This document shows positions 4,567 to 49,212 of a stretch of DNA of 50,850 nucleotides, in pieces. The stretch lies in IMG/VR virus record IMGVR_UViG_2526164600_000002; one strand, 5' to 3'. The stretch's first letter is position 1. Every line of letters begins with the position of its first letter. The notes under the pieces are model-generated. The model searched no databases, was not told the DNA's origin, and was given only the letters and a program-made list of their open reading frames with translations. This DNA comes from a virus. Taxonomy: Duplodnaviria > Heunggongvirae > Uroviricota > Caudoviricetes. A program made the position numbers and the translations under genes.

Positions 4567-5142
4567 CTACGGCAGTGCTGGCCATTCAATATCCTGTGAA
4601 GTTGACGTATCAACACGGTTCAGCAATACCCGATACTTTTTCCATGCTTCCAGCAACGAGATTTCTTCCTCCGTTGCAATTTCCAGATCTGCAGCATCCT
4701 GAAGCGGCGCAATATGCTCACTGGCTACCTGCATCAGGTTGTTTTTTATTTCTTCCGCCTCCCGGATCCGGAACAGTTTTTCTGCTTCCGTATCCTTCAC
4801 CCAGGCTGTGCCGTTCCACTTCTGAAACTCTCCTTCCGGCGATAACCAGGTAACATTTTCCGGTAACGGACCGAGTTCAGAAATAAATAACGCGTCGCCG
4901 GAAGCCACGTCATAAACCGTTTTACCCCGATGATCTTCAACGAGATGCCACGATGACTCATCACTGTTGAAAACAGCCACGAAGCCTGCCGGAATATCTG
5001 GCGGTGCAATATCGGTACTGTTTGCTGGCAGACCTGTATGAGGCGGAATATATGCATCACCTTCACCAATAAATTCATTAGTTCCGGCCAGCAGATTATA
5101 AATTTTTATGGTCCGTGGTTGTTCACTCATTCTGAATGCCAT
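4567..5142 (-). CDS. tfa: Tail fibre assembly protein (Tfa)
   Basis: ORF track 191 aa; follows stf with overlapping stop/start; lambda-like Tfa family. Confidence 0.85.
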
Positions 5143-8100: not shown

Positions 8101-8678
8101 TCTGCAGCGGCAGCACTTTTTAATGCTTCAGTGGCCTTTGTTGATGCCGTTCCTGCGCTGGAAGACGCTGACTGAGCCGACGAAGCAGCCTGTCCGGCTG
8201 ACGTGCTGGCTGCGCGTGCTGAGCCTGCAGCATCAGTCGCATGGGTTGCCGCCTCACGGGCTGATGTGCTGGCATCGCTGGCTGACTTCTTCGCGGCCGC
8301 CGTGTTCTGTGCCACCGCGGACGCGTTACGCGCCACCTCTTCCACCATCAGTTCAAAACGGCGCAGTGCCTCAGGACGGGCATCATCCTCCGTCATGGCA
8401 CCGAGAAAATCATTCAGCGTACCGGGTCGGGAATCTTCATACACGGTGATGGTCCCGGCATGTGACGGCGGGAATCCTTCCACCAACAGAATAACGCTGT
8501 ACTGACCGTACTCAACGTCCATGCTGTAACGCCCGGCTTCATCCGGATTTTCTGAGGCCAGCGTGTTCACCACCACAGTGGTACTGTTACGTTTTGCTTT
8601 CAGCTGGATTGTGCAGTTCTGTACCGGTTTTCCTGTGCCGTCTTTCAGTACACCTGAAATCTTTACTGCCATATTCAC
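5142..8678 (-). CDS. stf: Side tail fibre protein (Stf), 1178 aa, with long Ala/Ser/Thr-rich low-complexity region, tandem tail-fibre repeats and C-terminal His-x-His repeats
   Basis: ORF track; N-terminus [17 protein letters not shown] typical of lambda/Rac Stf; repeated [14 protein letters not shown] motif; HTHS/HSHS/HAHT repeats at C-terminus. Confidence 0.85.
7065..7290. repeat. Two imperfect ~100-bp direct repeats inside stf, encoding the duplicated tail-fibre repeat motif; followed (7300-8300) by GC-rich Ala/Ser/Thr codon low-complexity DNA
   Basis: Repeat units read at about 7069-7160 and 7191-7290; ORF track shows open frames on both strands across 7268-8505, typical of repetitive triplet DNA. 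Confidence 0.6.
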
Positions 8679-30069: not shown

Positions 30070-30298
30070 GCCAAAAAGCTCCCGAAGGAGCCTTCATTTT
30101 CACTTTTTTAAATCCAACGACAGACGGCTGGCATTTAAGTATTGTGAAATATTATCAAATGTAATCATCATTGATTTACAAAAGATACATTTTGCCCCGA
30201 AAGGATTCATGTCAGAAACATCAAAAGATGATGTTCTATACTGGGAACCATGACAACACGGGCATCTAAAGTGAATATGGTTTGTAATATTGTCTACC

Positions 30299-30511
30299 TC
30301 AAAGCGCCACTACATGAACAGCGGCAGGACCTTTAGGTCCGTTCTCAATACCAAATTCAACTTCCTGATTCTCAGTTAATGTTTTGAAATCGTTGCTCTG
30401 AATTGCTGAGAAATGGACAAACACATCTTTGCTGCCATCTTTCGGCGTGATGAAACCAAAACCTTTTTCAGGGTTAAACCATTTCACTAAACCAGTCATT
30501 TTGTTAGACAT
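30299..30511 (-). CDS. cspI: Cold shock protein CspI (CspA family, 70 aa)
   Basis: ORF track; [27 protein letters not shown] cold-shock domain; long AT-rich 5' leader upstream. Confidence 0.9.
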
Positions 30512-30873
30512 AATTATTACCTTTTGAAGAAATTAGCCCTTGGGCAGAATGGTCCGAAAAAAAATATCAGAGAGAAAAACCAACAAGGAAATCTCAAGAG
30601 GTACAAATAATAAAATTATAACAATGACTGCTTCAGATAAATTTGTAACAAACCAGAACACCATTAACGCATGATTAACCACCCATAGCAAGGATTACTT
30701 TTGTAAAGAAAAACACAGCAATGAAAGAATAGCTTTATTTATTAATAAAACGTGTCATTCTGATTAAGACCTTTTATCTTACCCTTAAGATTTCAGGAAT
30801 TTTGGCTCATGGAAGAGTCCTTTTTATTTAAATTTTACATTCCGCGATGTAAATGTTCCGATTTAATATTACC

Positions 30874-32818: not shown

Positions 32819-33180
32819 TTGATTTTATTAGTAACAAGTATTTTTATATTTTAATAATATATTTAAAGCAGATAATAAAAAACCCGCCTGAGCGGGTTTG
32901 AGATTGTGGTGCTTTTTGTGGGAGTCATCCACTTACGCACTTTGTTTTGCGATGCCAGCAGTTAGCTTCTGCTGTGAAACTATTCATGCAGCAAACCTGC
33001 ACTTCACCACAATGGTTAGCATACTTTTCCTGATTAAGATTTTGCCAAATATGCTGGCCATTGTTTCATGTATTGGACCTCCTTACTTTTTATTAAAGAG
33101 ATCCAATATTCACTACTCTGTCCGTATCTCTACTCAGGCATCAGCCTTCTTCGTTATCGTATACAGACGAGCGATGAATT

Positions 33181-33396
33181 TTAATCAGTAATGATGACAT
33201 TTACTGCTGCAGGACCTTTAGCACCACTCTCTATAGAGAAGGTAACCTTTTGACCTTCAAATAAGGTTCGATAATTATCATTCTGAATCGCAGAAAAATG
33301 CACAAACACATCTTTACTACCATCAACAGGAGAAATAAAGCCGAAACCTTTATCAGCGTTAAACCATTTTACTAAACCAGTCATTTTATTTGACAT
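33181..33396 (-). CDS. cspB: Cold shock protein CspB (71 aa)
   Basis: ORF track; CspA-family cold-shock domain. Confidence 0.9.
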
Positions 33397-33706
33397 TCTA
33401 CATTCCTTAACTTGAGCCTTTCGGCATAAATGGTTTGCATAACAGAAACGACTTCGTACTTAATTGGAGAGACTCAAAGAAGGAATAAGTGAATAACACC
33501 TGAAATGAGAACTGCTTTAGTAAACTACTTCGTATATCGTCTGTTCTTCAAACCGACGCAGTCATTAACTCATAGTTGAACATATGAAGCAATGTTTATT
33601 TTAGACATCCAGCCACCTTCAATCCTATCAAAAAAGTAGTTTTCTCCAGGAACGTGTGTATGGTGCACCAGGTTATCAGTATTAAGGAGTTTTTCTGTCC
33701 CCTAAA

Positions 33707-39013: not shown

Positions 39014-40354
39014 TCAATCTTTTTTATCGGGATCAGGCTTCTTTTTAGGTAACTTCGGGGGCTTAACTTGCTGATGACTTTGCGTTCGGCGCGTAAGCCA
39101 GGGATGGTCAGCTTTAGGTTTAACATAGTATTTTGAGCGTAAATCAATACGGGCATTATCCACTCGTTCATGGACACTCTTTTCATCATCCAGTGGTATA
39201 GGCTCCGGGCCATCAACATACTTTTCCCAGCCCAGCGCTTTCCCGTCATACAGAACGTTAATTTCACCGTCAAAGTTCTCGCATACAGTAACAACCGAAT
39301 GCCTAAGTCGATATCCCCGGCTCTCACTGCGTACCTGAAACGCACTGCTTTTGTACTGGAAAGTGAGATTTTTAGACAGAACGCGCTTCGCCTGTAGGCT
39401 GAAGATATAACCCAGTTCCTCTTCAGAATGGTGCACATCAAGATGAGCATTATCAGTAGTACGAGGCGACGTAGCGAACCGGTTGTTATAGGCTTCAATA
39501 AAGGTCGGCAACCATGCATTTGCTGTTTCAATATCACTGATATTCTGAAGCCGCATTTCTTTGACCAGCCTGTCCTGTAGTGTCTGATTGGCGCGCTCTA
39601 CCCGCCCTTTTGCCTGCGGGCTGTTGGCATGGATTGGCTCGATGCCCAGTGTCTTTATCGCACGAGTGAACTGGGTCAGCTCACCTTCCCGCTCTGGGTT
39701 ATTTACCCTGAATATACTGTGTCTATCAGAGTAGAGAGCGAGCGGTACGCCACGATCATTAAGGTAACCCCGGAGGGTTTCCATGTAAGCCCGGGTTGTT
39801 TCAGCAGGCACAAAACGCAACGCCATCAACGCACTGGTGGCATCATCAATGAAAACGATCAGTGTACATCTGGGGCCTCGATTTTCAAACCAGTCATGAG
39901 GTGAGCCATCAATCTGGATCAGTTCACCGTAAGATGGTCGTCGCATGCGGCGTTGATATATACGGGCAATTTTACGACGGCGTTCACGCCATAACCCCTC
40001 TTCTATCATCCACTTTCTGAGAGTTTCAACGGATAAAGATAAACCGTGTATCTCGCGCAATTTTTCGCACGCAAACGTAGGTCCAAAATCAGCGTAACGG
40101 CCTTTGAGGAGTGAAATTACTGTTGCTCTGAATTCAGTAGAAAAGGAATTATTAGGACGCTTTCCACGTCGGTGGGAAACCAGACCAGAAGGCCCTTCAT
40201 TTCTATACCGTTGCACCAGACGTTTAACCTGCCGAATAGAAATGCCAATGCGTGCCGCAGCTTGTTCCTGAGTAATATGTCGATTAATTGACTCCTGAAT
40301 AATCTGAAGTCGGTGGAGTTCCTTATGACTCATCGTAACAGTCTCTTTGATCAT
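39014..40354 (-). CDS. DDE (integrase-core) transposase, IS481-like family (tentative), N-terminal HTH
   Basis: ORF track 446 aa; HTH region ARIGISIRQVKRLVQRYRNEG; DDE-type motifs IQIDGS...YSDRHSIF...PQAKGRVERANQTL. Confidence 0.8.
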   Translation of the reverse strand: MIKETVTMSHKELHRLQIIQESINRHITQEQAAARIGISIRQVKRLVQRYRNEGPSGLVSHRRGKRPNNSFSTEFRATVISLLKGRYADFGPTFACEKLREIHGLSLSVETLRKWMIEEGLWRERRRKIARIYQRRMRRPSYGELIQIDGSPHDWFENRGPRCTLIVFIDDATSALMALRFVPAETTRAYMETLRGYLNDRGVPLALYSDRHSIFRVNNPEREGELTQFTRAIKTLGIEPIHANSPQAKGRVERANQTLQDRLVKEMRLQNISDIETANAWLPTFIEAYNNRFATSPRTTDNAHLDVHHSEEELGYIFSLQAKRVLSKNLTFQYKSSAFQVRSESRGYRLRHSVVTVCENFDGEINVLYDGKALGWEKYVDGPEPIPLDDEKSVHERVDNARIDLRSKYYVKPKADHPWLTRRTQSHQQVKPPKLPKKKPDPDKKD

Positions 40355-40729
40355 GAAAAATCCCCCAGAGAATTGTCTGGGGACATTTTAGAATGGTTCA
40401 AAGGGGACATTACAGCTTGGTGTTAACAATAGCCTGCTTCTCCGTGCCTTTCGGCACGTAAGAGGCTAACCTACATGTGTCTAGCATGAAATTGGCCTCA
40501 GATTAATGTTAAGCGTCTTGCAGGACGCGTAATGTTAACTGGGGCTTTTCTCTATCTGCCGTTGGTGTCCATGCCCGAGGCAGATAGCCTCAAGCACCCG
40601 CAGTCATTCTACTTAACTAAGATTTCCCCGCAAACCGTTTTTGTCCAGCACAGTAAATATCCAACTAAACCAATGGAGTTCGCTGTATTTACCGCCAGTA
40701 TTCAATGCACATGACCGCCATGAACACCC

Positions 40730-40867: not shown

Positions 40868-42018
40868 TATTCCTCCTACAATCAATGTGCAATTACATTT
40901 AAACACACCTCAATTTGGCCGGACATATAAATATCTAAACCAGAAAAAATCACTTACATAGCGTTACAAACTCTTTAGTCTAAAGGTTCATCGTAAAACA
41001 TTCCCCATACTTATCAGTCCGTTCCGCGCCAGGTAGCTCATTGCCTTATCTGGCAACCTGTAATCAGGTTTCCGCTTTTTCAGTTGGCTGGTCGTTTAAC
41101 CGACATAGTTAATCCATTAATCTAGTTGCCGGATGTTGGTGGATTTTCGCGTTTTAGTTGTTCATAAAAGTGCACAGCTTTAACCAGTTCTTCTGATGTA
41201 ACCGGGACTGGTGAGGCAGTGAATAAGGCCTGAATTTGATAGTTCGGCCTGTCGTTACAATCCTCTTTTTTCGGTACATATTTCCAGTCACCAGACCACT
41301 ACTTCCCCTGAAAGTCCGTAACGCTTTTTTCACGTAGCGATATCGCCATGCCACTGGTTTTGCTTGCCCCGCCGTTTCATGCCCTTCCTGATAATTAATC
41401 TCGCTCATTCATCGCCCCACTCATCACAATATGCTTCGACCGGAGTTTTTCCCGCTTCATAGTCATCACGTTAGGATTCGACATCAGCAGCACTTCCACC
41501 GCGTAATTCACCATAGTCCATTAATAGTTCATCCCGCTCTTCAAAACTGATGTTATATTTAGCTGAACAAAAATCAGCCACTTTGTTCTTCCTCATCGTC
41601 TTTTATTTCGTGGTATGAGTAATTGCAGTAGTTAAAGAAAATTTCTTATGCTCCGTCATGAATTTCATCAGGTGTTGCGTCATCGTCCACTTCGAATACA
41701 TCCTCAAAATCTCCACCAGCTATTTCCGTTTCAATAATAATTTTGAACTTTCGCATTTCACTACCGCCCTTTCGGGCGGCCTCCTGATGTTCTGAGGGTG
41801 CAGAAATCCATCCGGTTAAGGATTAAGTTTTATTTACAGAACTGAATTTAATTATTCAGATATACGTATCTGTAACCTTACGAATCTACTCACTGGATGC
41901 CTCTTTCATAAAAATAATCCAGTGGGTTTTATCGTTTTTTCCCTGTTCGTTGACAGATAACAGGCTTTCTATCTGTCAGTGCCAGAATCTGGCTTACCGG
42001 TATTTGCGTTTCATTCCA

Positions 42019-42375
42019 TTAAAAAATCAGAACGCCGTGCGGCCTCAACACCCGAAAAGCTTCTTTAAATCTCTGTCGCAAATCATCACGCCAGGCATCT
42101 TTATTCAGCCGTCCATATTTCTTTCCCATCCAGGCGTTATCACCAACACGCTCAAGATGCGGAGGGTCTAATACAACCATCGAAAAAGATGCGTCTGCAA
42201 ATGATAATGCACGAAAATCTGCGATAATGTCAGGGCTGATAATCAAGCGTCTCCCATTGCGTAATGTGTATCCTTCTTTTCTGATATCGCTGAATATCGC
42301 CCGTTTGTCAGACTTATCGAACCAGAACATGCGGCTGCCACAGCACATATCAAGAATGGTTGCCGGTGCACTCAC
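42019..42375 (-). CDS. Putative SAM-dependent methyltransferase fragment (motif I-like LDMCCGS and motif IV-like DPPH), probably truncated
   Basis: ORF track 118 aa; motifs read from translation; too short for a complete methyltransferase. Confidence 0.45.
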   Translation of the reverse strand: MSAPATILDMCCGSRMFWFDKSDKRAIFSDIRKEGYTLRNGRRLIISPDIIADFRALSFADASFSMVVLDPPHLERVGDNAWMGKKYGRLNKDAWRDDLRQRFKEAFRVLRPHGVLIF

Positions 42376-42794
42376 TGCGCCACGTCCTGAAAATTACCCT
42401 GATAGAAAGCCAGTATGCGCTGCATAACTTCGCTCTTCCGGCACTCGCGACAGATTATGTTTAGGCGACTGTCGTAGCGACGTATTTCTCCGTCAGGTGA
42501 TGACCAGATAAGGTCCGGATCAACCATAGCAGGTTTCTTCACCTTTGCCCTCGAGAGTTTTTTGCGGGCGTTTTGCCAGTCCTTACGCGCCTGTTCAGAG
42601 GGGAATAACCCGTAGCCGGAGTTGTATACATCGCCACTGGCTACCAGCTCTCTGGCAAGAACGCTCATCAGATATCTAGTCGCACCTGTTTTAGCTTCCA
42701 GTTGCCGTAACGTCTCACGGCCGCTCTGGCGCACGAGTTCCACCACCTGCCATTTAATTTTTTCCCGCTCTTCTTGTGTAAAAACTTTTGCCAC
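42372..42794 (-). CDS. Hypothetical protein, 140 aa, downstream of replication gene
   Basis: ORF track; stop overlaps the start of the methyltransferase-like ORF. Confidence 0.45.
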   Translation of the reverse strand: MAKVFTQEEREKIKWQVVELVRQSGRETLRQLEAKTGATRYLMSVLARELVASGDVYNSGYGLFPSEQARKDWQNARKKLSRAKVKKPAMVDPDLIWSSPDGEIRRYDSRLNIICRECRKSEVMQRILAFYQGNFQDVAQ

Positions 42795-42834: not shown

Positions 42835-43854
42835 TTATCCTCTGAAACCAGGCGGAATTTCTGTATCCGGTTCAGAAATATGATTAACACAACGCTGTAC
42901 AGGTGAACGTCCCAGGCGGATGACCAGTTCGTCCCATTTTTCGCGGAGCTTTGACGGGCTCATGATGTTTTTTACCCAGAATGGATCTCGCTGAACCCGA
43001 CCAAACATTTCGCAAATTTGTCTGTGGCTTCTGCCATCCAGCATCCGCATTGTGCGCACGTCATTGGCCCAGGCAGTCCAGTTAGGCTCTTTTGGTCGCA
43101 TGATCTCGCCATCATCACTGGCTGCCTGTTCGTAGAGACCCACGATCCGCCCCCAGATCCACTGCGCACACGCCAAATCCTCCCTGCTACCCCACTGGCG
43201 TTTTTTCGCACTAAACACAACCGCGTCGGAGTTCCGGGTTAAAGAATCCTGTTCAGTCGTCTGCGGGTCCGGTTGCGAAGCTTCCGGACGAAAAGTGTTT
43301 TTATTCTCTGTAGTAATCTCTGTTGTATTCTCTGTAAGATCATCAGGCCATTTTGACCCGATGACATTGGGTCGTTTTGAACCAATGGAGCGTTTCATTT
43401 TGACCTCTTCCATCGTGTCATTTTGACCTGATGGAGCGGCGCATTTTGAACCGATGGATTCGCTCAATTTGCCACCATCTAAAAGCTCGCTCCCATAGTT
43501 GATCGTGTAGAAATTGGTCATATCGCGCTTTGATTTATTGAGCTTTTCACAACGCAAAAGCCCCAGCGTTTTCAGACTTGCAAACGCGCGCTTTAACGTT
43601 GACTCTGACCAGAATGGGAACTGTTCCAGCCATTGTTCCGTTGTGTTATAAATCCAGCGAACACCATCACATTCCATGCCGGAGTTGGTATCTCTCAACC
43701 AGTAGTGCAGTTGTTGCAAAACAATGGCTTCGTTTAAGCCAATTTTCATTGCCAGCTGCGTGTTTATAACCAGTGGGCGTTCAGCAAAAAGAAGGCTCAT
43801 AATTCCATCCAGCTTTTTGTTGGTATTGCTGTCGATACGCAAGCTTGAAAGCAA
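42835..43854 (-). CDS. Phage replication initiation protein (lambda O-like replisome organiser) with internal iterons
   Basis: ORF track 339 aa; N-terminal HTH-like region; repeated SIGSK peptide encoded by DNA iterons; position after cro-like gene. Confidence 0.7.
   Translation of the reverse strand: MLSSLRIDSNTNKKLDGIMSLLFAERPLVINTQLAMKIGLNEAIVLQQLHYWLRDTNSGMECDGVRWIYNTTEQWLEQFPFWSESTLKRAFASLKTLGLLRCEKLNKSKRDMTNFYTINYGSELLDGGKLSESIGSKCAAPSGQNDTMEEVKMKRSIGSKRPNVIGSKWPDDLTENTTEITTENKNTFRPEASQPDPQTTEQDSLTRNSDAVVFSAKKRQWGSREDLACAQWIWGRIVGLYEQAASDDGEIMRPKEPNWTAWANDVRTMRMLDGRSHRQICEMFGRVQRDPFWVKNIMSPSKLREKWDELVIRLGRSPVQRCVNHISEPDTEIPPGFRG
43349..43460. repeat. Five directly repeated iterons (consensus CATTTTGA(C/A)C-GATGGAG, about 23-bp period) inside the replication gene; candidate phage origin
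   Basis: Repeats read at about 43349, 43373, 43396, 43419, 43442; AT-rich tract on the 3' side (43290-43340). Confidence 0.7.
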
Positions 43855-44302
43855 TTGCTTTTTCTATAAGTTCGTCAGTTTCACGATCCACTACGGCAGG
43901 ATCAGCAAAAAGCAGTCCGGACTCCACCACATCGCCATATTCTTTGTTTAACCCGGCGATCATGCACGTGATGCTTTTTCCGTCAGTAATTTCACGATAC
44001 AACCTGAAATCACTAATCCGGATAGCCTCCATAATCGCAGGCACTAGCGCCGTGAACTTTTCACGCTTATCCCTGGTGTCGATAGCCTTCCAGCGTTCGA
44101 ATATCTTCACTCGATTAACACCAAGCGCTCGCTGATCAACCGCGCCACCTTCATCTGTGACACGCTGAACATCGATGTTCGGGCGCTCTTTCAAAGCCCA
44201 GAATGCTTCAGTGATTAATATCGTCGCCTGCTCCTGTGTCATTCCTGGTCGACATATCCAGGCATCCAGAGCCTCACGAGCCTGTTCAGGAGTGATTTTC
44301 AT
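43781..44302 (-). CDS. Hypothetical protein, 173 aa, in the cII position (possibly the full-length form of YdfX)
   Basis: ORF track; position between cro-like dicC and the replication gene. Confidence 0.45.
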   Translation of the reverse strand: MKITPEQAREALDAWICRPGMTQEQATILITEAFWALKERPNIDVQRVTDEGGAVDQRALGVNRVKIFERWKAIDTRDKREKFTALVPAIMEAIRISDFRLYREITDGKSITCMIAGLNKEYGDVVESGLLFADPAVVDRETDELIEKAIAFKLAYRQQYQQKAGWNYEPSFC

Positions 44303-44513
44303 TGTTCAACCGCCCCGCCCGCTTCGTCTTACGATATTCATCATAAACTTTGGGATCATACTGAAGCTCCCCGCCAGATGCCTCCTGTAGACGCATCGCG
44401 CGACCTTCAGGAACCAGTATCCCCCAAGCAGCAACACTTGCCAGCCTCACTCCTGCGGCATTGGCAAGCTTTGTTTTGCTGCCAAAAAAAGTAATTGCGT
44501 CAACTTTAAGCAT
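44286..44513 (-). CDS. dicC: Cro-like regulator DicC (start at MLKVD inside ORF 44286..44546)
   Basis: ORF track; recognised sequence; divergent from dicA. Confidence 0.8.
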   Translation of the reverse strand: MLKVDAITFFGSKTKLANAAGVRLASVAAWGILVPEGRAMRLQEASGGELQYDPKVYDEYRKTKRAGRLNNENHS

Positions 44514-44527
44514 CAAAGCCCCCCTCT

Positions 44528-44545
44528 TGTTAGACTTTTCTAACA
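44528..44545. promoter_or_regulatory. Operator-like palindrome TGTTAGA-CTTT-TCTAACA in the dicC/dicA divergent control region
   Basis: Inverted repeat read directly; same half-sites recur downstream of dicA. Confidence 0.55.
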
Positions 44546-44594
44546 TTATTGTGCGCGGGATACCTAAGTCAAGAAAAATTAGAATTACCTAACT

Positions 44595-45002
44595 ATGGAT
44601 ACAAGAACCCTGGGCCAGCGAGTTCTGGCGCGACGAAAAGAATTACGCTTAACACAACGAGAAGCCGCGCGCCTCGCTGGAGTTGCTCACGTCACAATTT
44701 CACAATGGGAAAGAGACGAAACCCAGCCAGTCGGAAAACGATTGTTTGCTTTAGCGGATGCTCTGAAGTGCTCACCTACATGGCTAATGTTTGGTGACGA
44801 AGACAAGGCACCAGTGCCTGCACAAGAACTTCATGTGGAAACAGAGCTAACTCCCAACCACAAAGAATTGATCGAATTATTCGATGCTCTTCCATCTTCC
44901 GAGCAGGAAGCCTTGCTGTCTGAAATGCGCGCAAGAGTAGAAAACTTCAACAAACTCTTCGAAGAAATGCTTAAAGCGCGTAAAAATAAATCAATAAAAT
45001 AA
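44595..45002 (+). CDS. dicA: Repressor DicA (cI/C2-like HTH)
   Basis: ORF track 135 aa; HTH region LRLTQREAARLAGVAHVTISQWE. Confidence 0.9.
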   Translation: MDTRTLGQRVLARRKELRLTQREAARLAGVAHVTISQWERDETQPVGKRLFALADALKCSPTWLMFGDEDKAPVPAQELHVETELTPNHKELIELFDALPSSEQEALLSEMRARVENFNKLFEEMLKARKNKSIK

Positions 45003-46044: not shown

Positions 46045-46102
46045 TTTCTGGTGACGTTTGGCGGTATCAGTTTTACTCCGTGACTGCTCTGCCGCCCTTT
46101 TT
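46045..46102 (+). ncRNA. dicF: DicF small regulatory RNA (ftsZ-targeting), ending in intrinsic terminator GCCGCCCTTTTT
   Basis: Sequence TTTCTGGTGACGTTTGGCGGTATCAGTTTTACTCCGTGACTGCTCTGCCGCCCTTTTT recognised; lies between ydfC and dicB. Confidence 0.85.
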
Positions 46103-46704: not shown

Positions 46705-49212
46705 TTGTTCATCCTTAAATCTGTCATGAGGTTAAAACAAATGAGTAAAGTCTTTATTTGCGCCGCTATTCCTGACGAACTGGCAACAAGGGAAGAAGGC
46801 GCTGTGGCTGTAGCCACAGCCATTGAAGCTGGCGACGAACGCCGTGCTCGAGCAAAATTTCACTGGCAATTCCTGGAACATTATCCGGCTGCTCAGGACT
46901 GCGCTTATAAATTTATTGTCTGCGAGGATAAACCTGGCATACCCCGCCCTGCCCTCGATTCATGGGATGCTGAATATATGCAGGAAAACCGCTGGGATGA
47001 GGAGTCTGCTTCTTTTGTCCCGGTTGAGACTGAATCCGATCCGATGAACGTCACTTTTGACAAGCTGGCCCCTGAAGTACAGAACGCTGTCATGGTTAAG
47101 TTCGACACATGTGAAAACATCACCGTTGATATGGTTATTAGCGCACAGGAATTGTTGCAGGAAGACATGGCAACATTCGACGGACATATCGTTGAAGCGT
47201 TGATGAAAATGCCAGAAGTTAACGCCATGTATCCGGAGCTTAAGTTGCACGCCATTGGGTGGGTTAAGCATAAATGTATTCCTGGTGCTAAATGGCCCGA
47301 AATTCAGGCAGAGATGCGCATCTGGAAAAAACGTCGCGAAGGTGAACGCAAGGAAACCGGAAAATACACGTCTGTTGTTGATCTCGCCCGCGCCAGAGCC
47401 AATCAACAGTACACTGAAAATTCAACAGGAAAAATCAGCCCGGTCATTGCTGCCATTCATCGCGAATACAAGCAGACATGGAAAACACTGGATGACGAAC
47501 TGGCCTACGCTCTCTGGCCTGGTGATGTGGATGCCGGAAACATTGACGGCAGCATCCATCGCTGGGCAAAAAAAGAAGTTATCGACAACGACCGCGAAGA
47601 CTGGAAGCGTATCTCGGCATCAATGCGCAAACAGCCTGATGCCCTTCGCTACGACCGCCAAACTATTTTTGGCCTTGTCCGTGAGCGTCCGATCGACATT
47701 CACAAAGATCCCGTAGCACTGAACAAATATATCTGCGAATACCTGACGACAAAGGGCGTGTTTGAGAATGAAGAAACAGACCTGGGCACTGTTGATGTTC
47801 TCCAGTCATCAGAAACACAAACTGATGCAGTGGAAACTGAGGTATCTGATATCCCAAAAAATGAAACCGCGCCGGAAGCTGAACCATCTGTAGAGCGTGA
47901 GGGGCCGTTCTATTTCCTCTTCGCAGATAAGGACGGAGAAAAATACGGTCGCGCAAACAAACTCTCTGGTCTGGATAAGGCACTGGCTGCTGGCGCCACT
48001 GAAATCACAAAAGAAGAATATTTTGCCCGAAAAAATGGCACATACACGGGCTTACCGCAAAATGTAGATACCGCTGAAGATTCAGAACAACCAGAGCCGA
48101 TAAAAGTTACCGCTGACGAAGTAAACAAAATTATGCAGGCAGCCAATATCAGCCAGCCTGACGCCGATAAGTTGCTTGCTGCATCACGTGGTGAATTTGT
48201 TGAAGGGATTAGTGACCCGAATGATCCGAAATGGGTTAAGGGGCTCCAGACCCGCGATTCTGTGAACCAGAACCAGCATGAATCGGAACGGAACTACCAA
48301 AAAGCGGAACAAAACAGTCCAAATGCGTTACAAAACGAGCCAGAAACGAAACAGCCTGAACCAGTAGCGCAACAGGAAGTGGAAAAAGTCTGCACCGCCT
48401 GCGGTCAGACCGGCGGCGGCAACTGCCCTGATTGTGGCGCGGTGATGGGCGACGCAACATACCAAGAAACATTCGATGAAGAGTATCAGGTTGAAGTTCA
48501 GGAAGATGATCCGGAGGAAATGGAAGGCGCTGAACATCCACACAAGGAGAACACTGGCGGCAATCAGCATCACAATAGCGATAATGAAACTGGCGAGACG
48601 GCAGATCACCCAATTAAGGTGAACGGTCATCACGAAATCACATCCACCAGCAGGACGTGTGACCATCTAATGATCGACCTTGAAACCATGGGAAAAAATC
48701 CTGATGCCCCGATCATCTCAATAGGTGCAATATTTTTCGATCCGCAAACCGGAGATATGGGACCGGAATTTAGTAAGACTATCGATCTGGAAACTGCTGG
48801 CGGAGTCATTGATCGGGACACCATTAAATGGTGGCTTAAGCAATCACGCGAAGCGCAATCTGCCATTATGACCGATGAAATCCCGTTAGATGATGCACTG
48901 TTACAATTGCGAGAATTTATCGACGAAAACTCCGGTGAATTTTTTGTTCAGGTTTGGGGAAATGGAGCCAACTTCGACAACACGATTTTGCGCCGTTCAT
49001 ACGAACGGCAGGGGATCCCCTGCCCGTGGCGTTACTACAACGATCGCGATGTACGCACAATCGTTGAGCTGGGGAAAGCCATAGACTTCGATGCCAGAAC
49101 GGCTATTCCATTCGAAGGTGAGCGCCATAATGCACTTGATGACGCCCGTTACCAGGCAAAATACGTTTCAGTTATCTGGCAAAAACTGATCCCGAGTCAG
49201 GCTGATTCTTAA
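46705..49212 (+). CDS. ydfE: Large YdfE-like protein (835 aa) with central acidic region, CxxC...CxxC zinc ribbon and C-terminal DEDDh-type 3'-5' exonuclease domain
   Basis: ORF track; exonuclease motifs MIDLETMG (Exo I), VWGNGANFD (Exo II), HNALDDARY (Exo III with His); zinc ribbon CTACGQTGGGNCPDCG. Confidence 0.7.
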   Translation: MFILKSVMRLKQMSKVFICAAIPDELATREEGAVAVATAIEAGDERRARAKFHWQFLEHYPAAQDCAYKFIVCEDKPGIPRPALDSWDAEYMQENRWDEESASFVPVETESDPMNVTFDKLAPEVQNAVMVKFDTCENITVDMVISAQELLQEDMATFDGHIVEALMKMPEVNAMYPELKLHAIGWVKHKCIPGAKWPEIQAEMRIWKKRREGERKETGKYTSVVDLARARANQQYTENSTGKISPVIAAIHREYKQTWKTLDDELAYALWPGDVDAGNIDGSIHRWAKKEVIDNDREDWKRISASMRKQPDALRYDRQTIFGLVRERPIDIHKDPVALNKYICEYLTTKGVFENEETDLGTVDVLQSSETQTDAVETEVSDIPKNETAPEAEPSVEREGPFYFLFADKDGEKYGRANKLSGLDKALAAGATEITKEEYFARKNGTYTGLPQNVDTAEDSEQPEPIKVTADEVNKIMQAANISQPDADKLLAASRGEFVEGISDPNDPKWVKGLQTRDSVNQNQHESERNYQKAEQNSPNALQNEPETKQPEPVAQQEVEKVCTACGQTGGGNCPDCGAVMGDATYQETFDEEYQVEVQEDDPEEMEGAEHPHKENTGGNQHHNSDNETGETADHPIKVNGHHEITSTSRTCDHLMIDLETMGKNPDAPIISIGAIFFDPQTGDMGPEFSKTIDLETAGGVIDRDTIKWWLKQSREAQSAIMTDEIPLDDALLQLREFIDENSGEFFVQVWGNGANFDNTILRRSYERQGIPCPWRYYNDRDVRTIVELGKAIDFDARTAIPFEGERHNALDDARYQAKYVSVIWQKLIPSQADS

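What the first reader, a model, noticed from the sequence alone, without database searches (positions are those of the whole stretch)
43349..43460. Iteron-type origin embedded in the replication initiator gene
Five copies of an approximately 19-bp motif (CATTTTGACC-GATGGAG-like) repeat with a 23-bp period inside the 339-aa replication gene and are mirrored at protein level by SIGSK repeats. An AT-rich stretch lies just 3' in the direction of transcription. This is the lambda O/ori lambda arrangement and marks the probable origin. No P/DnaC-like helicase loader follows; instead there is a 140-aa unknown ORF and a methyltransferase-like fragment.
Basis: partly seen in the sequence, partly recalled or inferred. 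Interest (0 to 1): 0.45.

Follow-up and report, generated by a model that had tools for sequence, protein, structure and literature searches.

The report
Prophage replication origin inside initiator gene
A run of short DNA repeats inside the replication-initiator gene of an E. coli Qin-type prophage is almost certainly the phage's origin of replication, laid out as in phage lambda; this is an expected arrangement, with the twist that the phage has no helicase-loader gene and its initiator ends in a copy of the tail of the host protein DnaT.

Summary
Five good 23-bp units plus one degenerate unit lie at 43339-43477, each built on the dyad GGTCA-AAA-TGACC. An A/T-rich block of three 12-mers (43301-43336) follows in the direction of transcription. 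All of this sits in the interdomain linker of a 321-aa initiator gene (42835-43800, minus strand).

The repeats act as DNA, not as peptide. The 23-bp period puts copies in three reading frames. Against relatives, third-codon-position identity is 0.73-0.90 in the iteron region and 0.93-1.0 in the 12-mers, versus 0.41-0.47 in the N-terminal-domain coding region.

Eleven other genes encoding the same N-terminal domain, from enterobacterial, Bacillus, Staphylococcus and Stenotrophomonas phages, show 22-24-bp repeat units at the same position, though the periodicity is significant in only some. The dyad arms change with the protein lineage.

The C-terminal domain is homologous to lambda O (34% identity, E 5e-26); the N-terminal domain is not.

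No loader gene follows; the next gene is Ren-like (DUF977). The last 20 residues match the flexible C-terminal tail of host DnaT (14/20 identical).

This is a new member of a known kind, of modest interest. Origin activity has not been tested experimentally.

The parts
43339..43454 (-). Five well-formed 23-bp iterons. Units lie at 43432-43454, 43409-43431, 43386-43408, 43363-43385 and 43339-43361. On the coding strand the core is (C)A..GGTCAAAATGA(C)C, that is, the dyad GGTCA-AAA-TGACC.
   Evidence: The information-content profile of 30 units from 5 genomes shows a high-information core and low-information spacers.
43455..43477 (-). Sixth, degenerate iteron on the upstream side (GGTGGCAAATTGAGC). 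In the Citrobacter- and Enterobacter-type relatives this position holds a good copy (GAGGTCAAAGTGACC).
43301..43336 (-). A/T-rich block of three tandem 12-mers, TACAGAGA(A/T)TAC. It is the proposed DNA-unwinding and helicase-entry region. It lies immediately after the iterons in the direction of transcription.
   Evidence: (family D3). Third-codon-position identity to relatives is 0.93-1.0. The same CAGAGA-type repeats follow the iterons in the Bacillus and Staphylococcus phage homologues, and in BMBtp2 they are read in two frames.
42835..43800 (-). Replication initiator gene, 321 aa from the ATG at 43800. The longest ORF, 339 aa, starts at the TTG at 43854.
   Evidence: PHROG 391, E 6e-91; RefSeq 'phage replication protein O'; 99.7% identical gene in phage PhiR42_1.
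43486..43800 (-). Codes for the N-terminal domain (aa 1 to ~105). The model gives a winged-helix-like alpha/beta fold, and this is the presumed iteron-binding domain. The family is shared with Staphylococcus and Bacillus phage initiators and has no Pfam model.
   Evidence: 39-46% identity to Staphylococcus and Bacillus phage proteins; pLDDT 65-82; only winged-helix matches, best E 0.13, not significant; no Pfam family.
42910..43194 (-). Codes for the helical C-terminal domain (aa ~203-297), homologous to the C-terminal domain of lambda O.
   Evidence: (E 5e-26).
42838..42900 (-). Codes for the last 21 aa, VQRCVNHISEPDTEIPPGFRG, a near-copy of the flexible C-terminal tail of host DnaT (residues 159-179).
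   Evidence: PDB DnaT chains, E 0.01-0.04; 14/20 identical, pairwise E 2e-8, terminal in both proteins. Related tails occur on unrelated C-terminal domains.
42372..42794 (-). 140-aa DUF977 / Ren-like protein in the position that ren occupies in lambda. It is not a helicase loader.
   Evidence: PF06163, E 5.5e-29; PHROG 142 'Ren-like exclusion protein', E 1.7e-47; C-terminal 20 aa similar to lambda Ren.
42019..42375 (-). 118-aa fragment of a SAM-dependent DNA methyltransferase. RefSeq marks the gene as frameshifted.
43781..44302 (-). YdaT/CII-like gene directly upstream. It overlaps the initiator start by 20 nt.
   Evidence: (PHROG 163, E 2.6e-40).
44545..44572 (-). pR-like sigma-70 promoter (TTGACT-16-AATAAT). 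It would drive transcription through cro-like, cII-like and the initiator gene, and so across the origin.
   Evidence: This is a consensus match only.

Best explanation
The array is the vegetative replication origin of a Qin/Kim-type lambdoid prophage, embedded in its own initiator gene.

Shown here:
- Five to six dyad-symmetric 23-bp sites and an adjacent A/T-rich 12-mer block lie in the part of the gene that encodes a disordered interdomain linker.
- They are conserved as DNA rather than as peptide.
- They recur, with lineage-specific arms, in every gene examined that encodes the same N-terminal domain.
- The C-terminal domain is a lambda O homologue.

Inferred steps:
1. Dimers of the winged-helix-like N-terminal domain bind the GGTCA-AAA-TGACC dyads.
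2. They assemble an O-some-like nucleoprotein complex on the phased A-tract sites.
3. The complex, helped by pR transcription through the region, melts the neighbouring 12-mer block.
4. Host DnaB is loaded there.

The phage encodes no P-, DnaC- or DnaB-type protein, so helicase delivery must use host factors. The most likely route is the initiator's C-terminal region, including its DnaT-like tail, feeding into the host DnaT/DnaC-DnaB hand-off.
For: Repeat statistics:
-. The lag-23 self-identity is 0.68 against a null maximum of 0.54.

DNA-level constraint:
- Copies fall in three reading frames.
- Third-codon-position identity against L091-L093 is 0.73-0.90 in the iteron region and 0.93-1.0 in the 12-mers, versus 0.41-0.47 in the N-terminal-domain coding region.

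Comparative conservation with covariation:
- 22-24-bp repeat units sit at the same gene position in yong2, L091-L097, BMBtp2, 42E and StM171. The periodicity exceeds the codon-shuffle null in seven of these and is weak in 42E, L096, L097 and StM171.
- The arms differ by lineage: GGTCA..TGACC, GGACA..TGTCC, GGGCA..TGCCC, GTGTCAAAATGA, GGGACAAAATGGCCC, TACCCAAAATGGGG.
- yong2 keeps the array although its C-terminal half is unrelated. SfIV keeps the C-terminal domain but has a different N-terminal domain and different 15-bp iterons.

Same geometry as the annotated lambda origin:
- Iterons lie at aa 117-145 of 299 in lambda and aa 116-154 of 321 here.
- The A/T-rich block follows in both. GC is 0.225 in lambda and 0.30 here.

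Protein evidence:
- PHROG 391.
- Lambda O C-terminal-domain homology.
- Model with a folded N-terminal domain, a disordered linker over the origin-encoded stretch, and a helical C-terminal domain.

Precedent:
- For Staphylococcus phage 80alpha ORF20, SPP1 gene 38 and lambda O, the origin lies inside the organizer gene (PMC5499656; rep_origin annotation).
Against: - There is no experimental evidence for origin activity in this phage or in any close relative. PhiR42_1 is deposited as a phage genome, but I found no paper showing that it replicates.
- The N-terminal domain has no detectable homology to lambda O, and its winged-helix assignment rests on a mediocre model (mean pLDDT 51) and non-significant Foldseek matches.
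- The A/T-rich block is less A/T-rich than lambda's.
- The mechanism of helicase loading is not established. There is no DnaA-box cluster.
- The prophage in this window carries an IS element and a frameshifted methyltransferase, so it may be defective. The initiator ORF itself is intact.
Confidence: 0.8

Rival explanations
1. The repeats are a protein-level feature. They would be a repetitive or low-complexity linker (SIGSK repeats, TENT/TEIT repeats) with no cis-acting role.
For: Three of the five units translate to IGSK. The 12-mers are in frame and give T-E-N-T, T-E-I-T and T-E-N-K. The region is predicted to be disordered.
Against: - The 23-bp period places units in all three frames, and two units translate to unrelated peptides.
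- Third codon positions are as conserved as first and second positions across the array, whereas in the N-terminal-domain coding region they are near saturation.
- In BMBtp2 the CAGAGA element recurs at 10-12 bp spacing in two frames.
- Information content follows a DNA dyad, not codons.
Confidence: 0.03
2. The array is a binding site for the initiator or another regulator, but it serves regulation rather than initiation. Examples are autoregulation, transcription roadblock, copy control or incompatibility by handcuffing. The true origin would lie elsewhere.
For: Iterons in plasmids have such secondary roles (general knowledge). The array lies in the path of pR transcription. No loader gene is present, so initiation at this site is mechanistically incomplete.
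Against: - The array is always paired with an adjacent conserved A/T-rich repeat block, as in the annotated origins of lambda and 80alpha.
- TRF found no comparable repeat array elsewhere in the window.
- Position and geometry match the lambda origin.
Confidence: 0.1
3. The high nucleotide conservation of the linker reflects recent recombination at a module junction between exchangeable N- and C-terminal domains, not functional constraint. The repeats would be a by-product.
For: The linker is exactly where C-terminal domains are swapped: lambda-O-type, PF09524-type and others. Mosaic boundaries in lambdoid phages are often conserved (general knowledge).
Against: - Arrays with the same period and a CAAAATG centre persist in Bacillus, Staphylococcus and Stenotrophomonas phages whose flanking DNA is fully diverged.
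- Within the units the core is more conserved than the spacers.
- The arms covary with the N-terminal domain.
Confidence: 0.05

Closest known systems
Bacteriophage lambda O protein and ori-lambda (four 18-bp iterons, then an A/T-rich region, inside gene O)
   Same: - Direct repeats with internal dyad symmetry and an A-tract centre. Lambda has TCCCTCAAAACGAGGGA; here the site is GGTCAAAATGACC.
- Spacing is 20-24 bp in lambda and 23 bp here.
- The position in the gene is the same: aa 117-145 of 299 versus aa 116-154 of 321.
- An A/T-rich block follows in the direction of transcription.
- The gene sits after the cro and cII analogues.
- The C-terminal domain is homologous (34% identity, E 5e-26).
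- A Ren-like gene lies downstream.
   Different: - The N-terminal domain is unrelated by sequence and by profile comparison.
- There are five to six sites rather than four.
- There is no P gene.
- The initiator carries a DnaT-like tail that lambda O lacks.
Replisome-organizer genes of Gram-positive phages with an internal origin (Staphylococcus phage 80alpha ORF20; Bacillus phage SPP1 gene 38/oriL)
   Same: The origin is embedded in the organizer gene, and iterons are followed by an A/T-rich repeat (PMC5499656). The window's N-terminal domain is 39-46% identical to initiators of other Staphylococcus and Bacillus phages (42E, BMBtp2). Those genes carry similar arrays and the same CAGAGA-type 12-mers.
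   Different: 80alpha gp20 itself is not a detectable homologue. Those phages encode a DnaC-like loader, a helicase or both next to the organizer. This phage does not.
Iteron plasmids (mini-F RepE, R6K pi, pSC101 RepA)
   Same: A winged-helix initiator binds a phased iteron array next to an A/T-rich unwinding element. No element-encoded helicase loader is present, so host DnaB-DnaC must be recruited by the initiator. RepE54 appears among the fold matches, at rank 40 and not significant.
   Different: There is no Rep_3-type sequence match and no DnaA-box cluster. The origin lies inside the coding sequence. The C-terminal domain is of the lambda-O type.
E. coli primosomal protein DnaT (C-terminal flexible tail, residues ~160-179)
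   Same: The last 20 residues are 70% identical and terminal in both proteins. In DnaT this segment is a flexible 20-residue tail, and removing it changes DnaT from trimer to dimer (PMC5778457; PMC5314882 summarising Szymanski et al. 2013).
   Different: There is no similarity to the DnaT N-terminal domain or three-helix bundle. The protein is not a DnaT family member; only the short terminal motif is shared.

Membership tests
Lambda-type origin embedded in an O-type initiator gene | Four or more direct repeats of ~18-23 bp, each with internal dyad symmetry, at roughly two-helical-turn spacing | tested here: met
   Five good units and one degenerate unit at 23-bp spacing (one interval is 24 bp), with the dyad GGTCA-AAA-TGACC.
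Lambda-type origin embedded in an O-type initiator gene | Array lies inside the initiator ORF, in the segment between the N- and C-terminal domains | tested here: met
   The array spans gene nt 324-462, aa 108-154 of 321. The model shows this stretch as disordered, between folded domains at 11-105 and 203-297. Lambda's iterons lie at aa 117-145.
Lambda-type origin embedded in an O-type initiator gene | A/T-rich region immediately after the iterons in the direction of transcription | tested here: met
   GC is 0.30 over the next 50 nt, against 0.48 for the gene. Lambda has 0.225 against 0.48.
Lambda-type origin embedded in an O-type initiator gene | C-terminal domain homologous to the lambda O C-terminal domain | tested here: met
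   BLASTP aligns aa 147-294 to O 135-270 with 34% identity, E 5e-26. tblastn hits lambda, 933W and HK140 O genes.
Lambda-type origin embedded in an O-type initiator gene | N-terminal iteron-binding domain homologous to that of lambda O | tested here: not met
   No Pfam hit even at E 10. BLASTP shows no N-terminal alignment. hhalign probability is 0.5%.
Lambda-type origin embedded in an O-type initiator gene | Adjacent partner gene for helicase delivery (P, DnaC-like or DnaB-like) | tested here: not met
   The next genes are DUF977/Ren-like and a methyltransferase fragment. The whole PhiR42_1 genome has no annotated helicase, loader or primase.
Lambda-type origin embedded in an O-type initiator gene | Initiator binds the iterons, and the segment supports initiator-dependent replication | not testable with these tools
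   This needs EMSA or footprinting and an ori-plasmid assay.
PHROG 391 'replication initiation O-like' | Full-length match to the family profile | tested here: met
   E 6.3e-91, residues 35-339 of the 339-aa ORF against profile positions 11-298 of 298.
DnaT (primosomal protein i) | Homology to the DnaT N-terminal domain and three-helix-bundle C-terminal domain | tested here: not met
   Only the last 20 residues align. The NCBIfam score is 16 bits against a cut-off of 201.
Iteron-plasmid Rep initiators (Rep_3/RepE type) with a DnaA-assisted origin | Rep_3-type sequence signature and DnaA boxes in the origin | tested here: not met
   No Pfam match. DnaA-box consensus: 3 hits in the window against 4.85 expected, and none in the array.

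The most novel reading that the evidence does not exclude
The DnaT-like C-terminal tail (...SEPDTEIPPGFRG) is a portable short linear motif. Through it, loader-less enterobacterial phage initiators would plug directly into the host primosome pathway, for example by co-assembling with or substituting for DnaT and so drawing in DnaB-DnaC. This would replace a phage-encoded P/DnaC-type loader. The motif would then define a distinct 'initiator-only, DnaT-mimic' class of lambdoid replication modules. Separately, the CAGAGA-type 12-mer block conserved from Staphylococcus and Bacillus phages to E. coli phages would be a shared unwinding or helicase-entry element of this origin family.
Probability: 0.35. 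Interest if true: 0.6.

Novelty: new member of a known kind. Interest (0 to 1): 0.33.

Why it matters
It locates the probable origin of a very common E. coli prophage type. The Qin/Kim dicA-dicC-dicB family occurs in hundreds of complete genomes, and the K-12 copy has lost this module. It also shows that an initiator N-terminal domain with no Pfam model travels together with its own iteron array across Gram-negative and Gram-positive phages. That gives a simple sequence rule for finding such origins.

The more interesting question it opens is how a lambdoid phage with a lambda-O-like C-terminal domain, but no P, DnaC or DnaB gene, loads the host helicase. The DnaT-tail copy makes that directly testable. 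It could also help clarify what the poorly understood DnaT tail does in replication restart.

Tried and rejected
- **Pfam and NCBIfam.** Pfam gave nothing useful for the initiator, even at E 10 on the separate halves. NCBIfam gave only the weak DnaT-tail match.
- **IMG/VR scan.** The scan with the N-terminal domain returned only loci 98-100% identical, so it was useless for a conservation test. I used protein-search hits at 50-76% identity plus look-up of encoding contigs instead.
- **80alpha ORF20.** I hoped it would be a homologue with genetic origin evidence. It is not a detectable homologue, only an analogue.
- **Remote homology to lambda O.** Profile-profile comparison of the N-terminal-domain family with lambda O found none.
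- **Fold search.** Foldseek against the PDB found only generic winged-helix domains, with none significant. The model is mediocre (mean pLDDT 51).
- **Wider DnaT homology.** I tested whether similarity to DnaT extends beyond the tail. It does not.
- **DnaA boxes.** A cluster would explain loader-less initiation. None was found.
- **Rfam.** No RNA family overlaps the array.
- **Literature.** I found nothing on PhiR42_1, on a phage DnaT-tail mimic, or on a specific partner of the DnaT tail.
- **Extra motif hit.** The hit at 8343-8361 lies inside a 1178-aa ORF that I did not characterise, and it is compatible with chance.
- **L094.** The database gene call was out of frame. I used the 309-aa ORF instead.
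Full report
**Context**

The window is an E. coli lambdoid prophage of the Qin/Kim type. The 3.2 kb around the finding is 100% identical to many E. coli chromosomes, and 519 complete genomes carry at least 80% of it.

In an annotated copy the neighbours are dicC, a dicA-like repressor, ydfA/B/C, dicB, ydfD, relBE, hokD and flxA. Rfam finds DicF at 46046-46097.

The early-right operon runs on the minus strand, in this order:
- cI-like repressor, 44595-45002 (+)
- Cro/DicC-like gene, 44286-44546 (-)
- YdaT/CII-like gene, 43781-44302 (-)
- the initiator, 42835-43800 (-)
- a DUF977 protein, 42372-42794 (-)
- a methyltransferase fragment, 42019-42375 (-)

E. coli K-12 Qin lacks the YdaT-to-methyltransferase segment. 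That statement rests on my own knowledge.

**The observation**

- TRF finds a period-23 array at 43375-43458.
- The repeat finder finds 23-bp-spaced families over 43341-43472.
Only 0.17 hits are expected in the whole window.
- The 11-nt core occurs exactly in four units. The 18-mer search picks up the fifth.
- A lag scan over the gene gives 68% self-identity at lag 23. Codon-shuffled controls have mean 45.5%, sd 2.3% and maximum 53.6%.

On the coding strand the units are:

| Gene nt | Unit |
|---|---|
| 324 | TGGTGGCAAATTGAGCGAATCCA (degenerate) |
| 347 | TCGGTTCAAAATGCGCCGCTCCA |
| 370 | TCAGGTCAAAATGACACGATGGA |
| 393 | AGAGGTCAAAATGAAACGCTCCA |
| 416 | TTGGTTCAAAACGACCCAATGTC |
| 440 | TCGGGTCAAAATGGCCTGATGAT |

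Each unit is built on an imperfect dyad, GGTCA-AAA-TGACC.

Directly after the array come three 12-mers, TACAGAGA(A/T)TAC, at 43301-43336. GC there is 0.30, against 0.48 for the gene.

The gene most likely starts at the ATG at 43800, giving 321 aa. RefSeq annotates this start, and all homologues begin MSLL.... The 339-aa figure comes from an upstream TTG.

**DNA element or peptide repeat?**

The period of 23 is not a multiple of 3. Three units read as IGSK and the other two as GQND and EVKM.

I compared the gene with three enterobacterial relatives whose N-terminal domain is 69-76% identical in protein (L091-L093). Third-codon-position identity was:

| Region | Third-position identity |
|---|---|
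| N-terminal-domain coding region | 0.41-0.47 |
| Iteron region | 0.73-0.90 |
| 12-mer block | 0.93-1.00 |

An information-content profile of 30 units from five genomes is high over A..GGTCAAA.TG and low in the spacers. In Bacillus phage BMBtp2 the CAGAGA element recurs at 10-12 bp spacing and is read in two frames, as P-E-T-T and Q-R-I-P. Together these results show constraint on the DNA itself.

Genes encoding the same N-terminal domain were collected from phage records and from assemblies. The eleven other genes examined show 22-24-bp repeat units at gene nt ~300-460. All except StM171 are followed by CAGAGA-type 12-mers.

The lag-scan periodicity exceeds all 200 codon shuffles in yong2, L091-L095 and BMBtp2. 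It only ties the null maximum in 42E and is not significant in L096, L097 and StM171, where the units were identified by eye.

The A/T centre (CAAAATG-like) is kept, while the arms change with lineage:

| Lineage | Core |
|---|---|
| Window and L091-L094 | GGTCA..TGACC |
| Hafnia phage yong2 | GGACA..TGTCC |
| L095-L097 | CAGGGCA..TGCCCT |
| Bacillus phage BMBtp2 | GTGTCAAAATGA |
| Staphylococcus phage 42E | GGGACAAAATGGCCC |
| Stenotrophomonas phage StM171 | TACCCAAAATGGGG |

yong2 shares only the N-terminal domain (49% identity) and has an unrelated C-terminal half. It still has five units at exactly the same gene coordinates.

SfIV, 716R3 and Kp4876-4 share the C-terminal domain but have a different N-terminal domain. 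They carry a different array there: 15-bp units built on GTCA-AAATC-TGAC.

So the array follows the N-terminal domain and not the C-terminal domain. That is the pattern expected if the N-terminal domain recognises the array.

**The protein**

- PHROGs places it in family 391, 'replication initiation O-like' (E 6e-91).
- Pfam has no model for either half.
- Residues 147-294 align with lambda O 135-270 (34% identity, E 5e-26).
- The N-terminal ~115 residues show no similarity to lambda O by BLASTP or hhalign.
- Those residues are instead 39-46% identical to initiators of Staphylococcus and Bacillus phages.

An AlphaFold2 model (mean pLDDT 51) shows:
- an alpha/beta domain at residues 11-105 (pLDDT 65-82) with a helix-turn-helix plus beta-hairpin pattern;
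- a disordered stretch from about 88/105 to 202, which is exactly the part encoded by the iterons and the 12-mers;
- a helical domain at 203-297;
- a disordered tail.

Foldseek against the PDB returns only winged-helix DNA-binding domains, including the mini-F iteron initiator RepE54 at rank 40. None is significant; the best E is 0.13. This is weak support only.

**Comparison with lambda**

In the annotated lambda record the four iterons lie at gene nt 349-433, aa 117-145 of 299. They are followed by a region of GC 0.225. Here the array lies at gene nt 324-462, aa 108-154 of 321, followed by GC 0.30.

Lambda's iterons (ATCCCTCAAAACGAGGGA) share the 'dyad arms around a TCAAAA centre' design. 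By the lag-scan measure the window's array is more regular than lambda's: 0.68 against 0.49. A pR-like promoter at 44572-44545 would send transcription through the array.

**No loader**

The 140-aa protein is DUF977 (E 5.5e-29) and PHROG 142 'Ren-like exclusion protein' (E 1.7e-47). Its C-terminal 20 residues resemble lambda Ren. The gene order is therefore O - (no P) - ren-like.

PhiR42_1 carries a 99.7% identical initiator and the same downstream genes. Its 48.7-kb record has no annotated helicase, loader or primase anywhere. I found no paper on this phage, so its activity is unverified.

Other relatives without a loader have transcription regulators downstream. Relatives L095-L097 and 42E do have DnaC-like and/or DnaB-like genes next to the initiator. 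There is no DnaA-box cluster.

**The DnaT-like tail**

The last 21 residues, VQRCVNHISEPDTEIPPGFRG, match E. coli DnaT 159-179, [21 protein letters not shown].
- Against DnaT the match is 14/20 identical, pairwise E 2e-8, and it ends on the last residue of both proteins.
- Against all PDB sequences the E-values are 0.01-0.04, for E. coli DnaT and a second, closely related DnaT sequence.
- Nothing else in DnaT aligns.

Similar tails sit on initiators with other C-terminal domains:
- SfIV: ..SQIPAGFRG
- P0069 (PF09524 type): ..SIPEGFRG
- P0084: ..VPAGFRGANS
- yong2: ..VPAGFRNG.., about 35 residues from the end
- 716R3 and Kp4876-4: ..ENSGFRT

Lambda O, L095-L097 and 42E all have loaders, and all lack the tail.

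In DnaT this segment is a highly flexible 20-residue tail (PMC5778457). DnaT truncated at residue 161 forms dimers instead of trimers (Szymanski et al. 2013, as summarised in PMC5314882 and PMC5778457). The 2026 preprimosome structures do not assign it a partner (PMC13377028).

I therefore propose, as inference only, that the tail links the initiator to the host DnaT/DnaC-DnaB pathway.

**Mechanism proposed**

Shown: the anatomy, the DNA-level constraint, the covariation with the N-terminal domain, and the lambda-O-type C-terminal domain.

Inferred:
1. N-terminal-domain dimers bind the dyads.
2. A wrapped nucleoprotein complex forms on the phased A-tract sites.
3. The 12-mer block melts.
4. 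Host DnaB is delivered with the help of the C-terminal region and tail.

**Rivals**

- A peptide-repeat explanation is excluded by the frame and third-position data.
- A purely regulatory binding array cannot be excluded. It is less likely given the invariable pairing with an A/T-rich repeat block and the match to annotated origins.
- Conservation through recent recombination at a domain junction does not explain arrays in fully diverged Gram-positive phage genes.

**Verdict**

This is a new member of a well-known kind of origin. Origins inside organizer genes are established for lambda and SPP1 and inferred genetically for 80alpha (PMC5499656). Initiator-only replication modules are, to my recollection, a recognised class in the Weigel and Seitz 2006 classification, which I could not read here. 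Interest is modest. The DnaT-tail copy and the cross-phylum 12-mer element are the parts worth following up.

Noticed in passing
window 42838-42900 (-): The initiator ends in a near-copy of the flexible C-terminal tail of host DnaT (14/20 identical, terminal in both). Similar GFRG-type tails occur on related initiators with unrelated C-terminal domains. They are absent from the relatives examined that have a loader gene.
   Followed up: partly
window 43301-43336 (-); L089, L088 and L095-L097 just after their iterons: CAGAGA-type 11-12-mers (TACAGAGAWTAC here) follow the iteron array in E. coli, Hafnia, Bacillus and Staphylococcus phage homologues. In BMBtp2 they are read in two frames. This may be a conserved unwinding or helicase-entry element.
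   Followed up: partly
window 43363-43454: The spacers between iteron cores alternate between CGCTCCATC and its reverse complement, CGATGGA(A)G. Alternate units therefore form longer palindromes (for example TCCATCAGGTCAAAATGACACGATGGA). The alternation is conserved in L091-L093. Its meaning is unknown.
   Followed up: no
L004 (SfIV), L007 (716R3) and L006 (Kp4876-4), initiator gene nt ~230-375: Initiators with the same C-terminal domain but a different N-terminal domain carry 5-7 tandem 15-bp units, (G/C)CGTCAAAATCTGAC. These are in frame (SKSDx peptide repeats) and are probably their own iterons.
   Followed up: partly
P0088, P0086; L089 (BMBtp2) initiator C-termini: Some relatives end in tails resembling the SSB C-terminal motif instead (...MENDPF, ...DGTYAF, ...EDIVLPF). 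This suggests that different host-recruitment tails are swapped onto this initiator family.
   Followed up: no
L092 2501-3169 and L093 2501-3438: In two relatives the initiator is split. A 222-aa ORF covers the N-terminal domain and linker, and a separate short ORF encodes the PF09524 domain. This could be a frameshift pseudogene or a genuine split. The iterons are intact in both.
   Followed up: no
window 8343-8361 (-): A single extra match to the iteron motif (CGTTTTGAACTGATGGTG, 3 mismatches) lies inside a 1178-aa ORF that was not characterised. It is compatible with chance.
   Followed up: yes
window 43781-43854: The YdaT/CII-like ORF overlaps the initiator start by 20 nt. An upstream in-frame TTG would give a 339-aa product, but homologues support the ATG at 43800.
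   Followed up: yes
window 39014-40354 (-) and 41886-42375: A 446-aa transposase ORF lies about 1.7 kb beyond the methyltransferase fragment. RefSeq marks the methyltransferase as frameshifted with an internal stop. This copy of the prophage may be partly decayed downstream of the replication module.
   Followed up: no
window 46046-46097 (+), 40428-40599 (-), 30272-30657 (-), 33134-33557 (-), 4601-4799 (-): Rfam gathering-threshold hits: DicF sRNA, sok antitoxin RNA (next to hokD), two cspA thermoregulator leaders, and IS009 RNA.
   Followed up: no
window 46705-49212 (+): An 835-aa ORF with a DEDDh-type 3'-5' exonuclease-like C-terminus. Related records annotate it as '3'-5' exonuclease' or 'exodeoxyribonuclease VIII'. 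It has a long acidic, low-complexity middle region.
   Followed up: no
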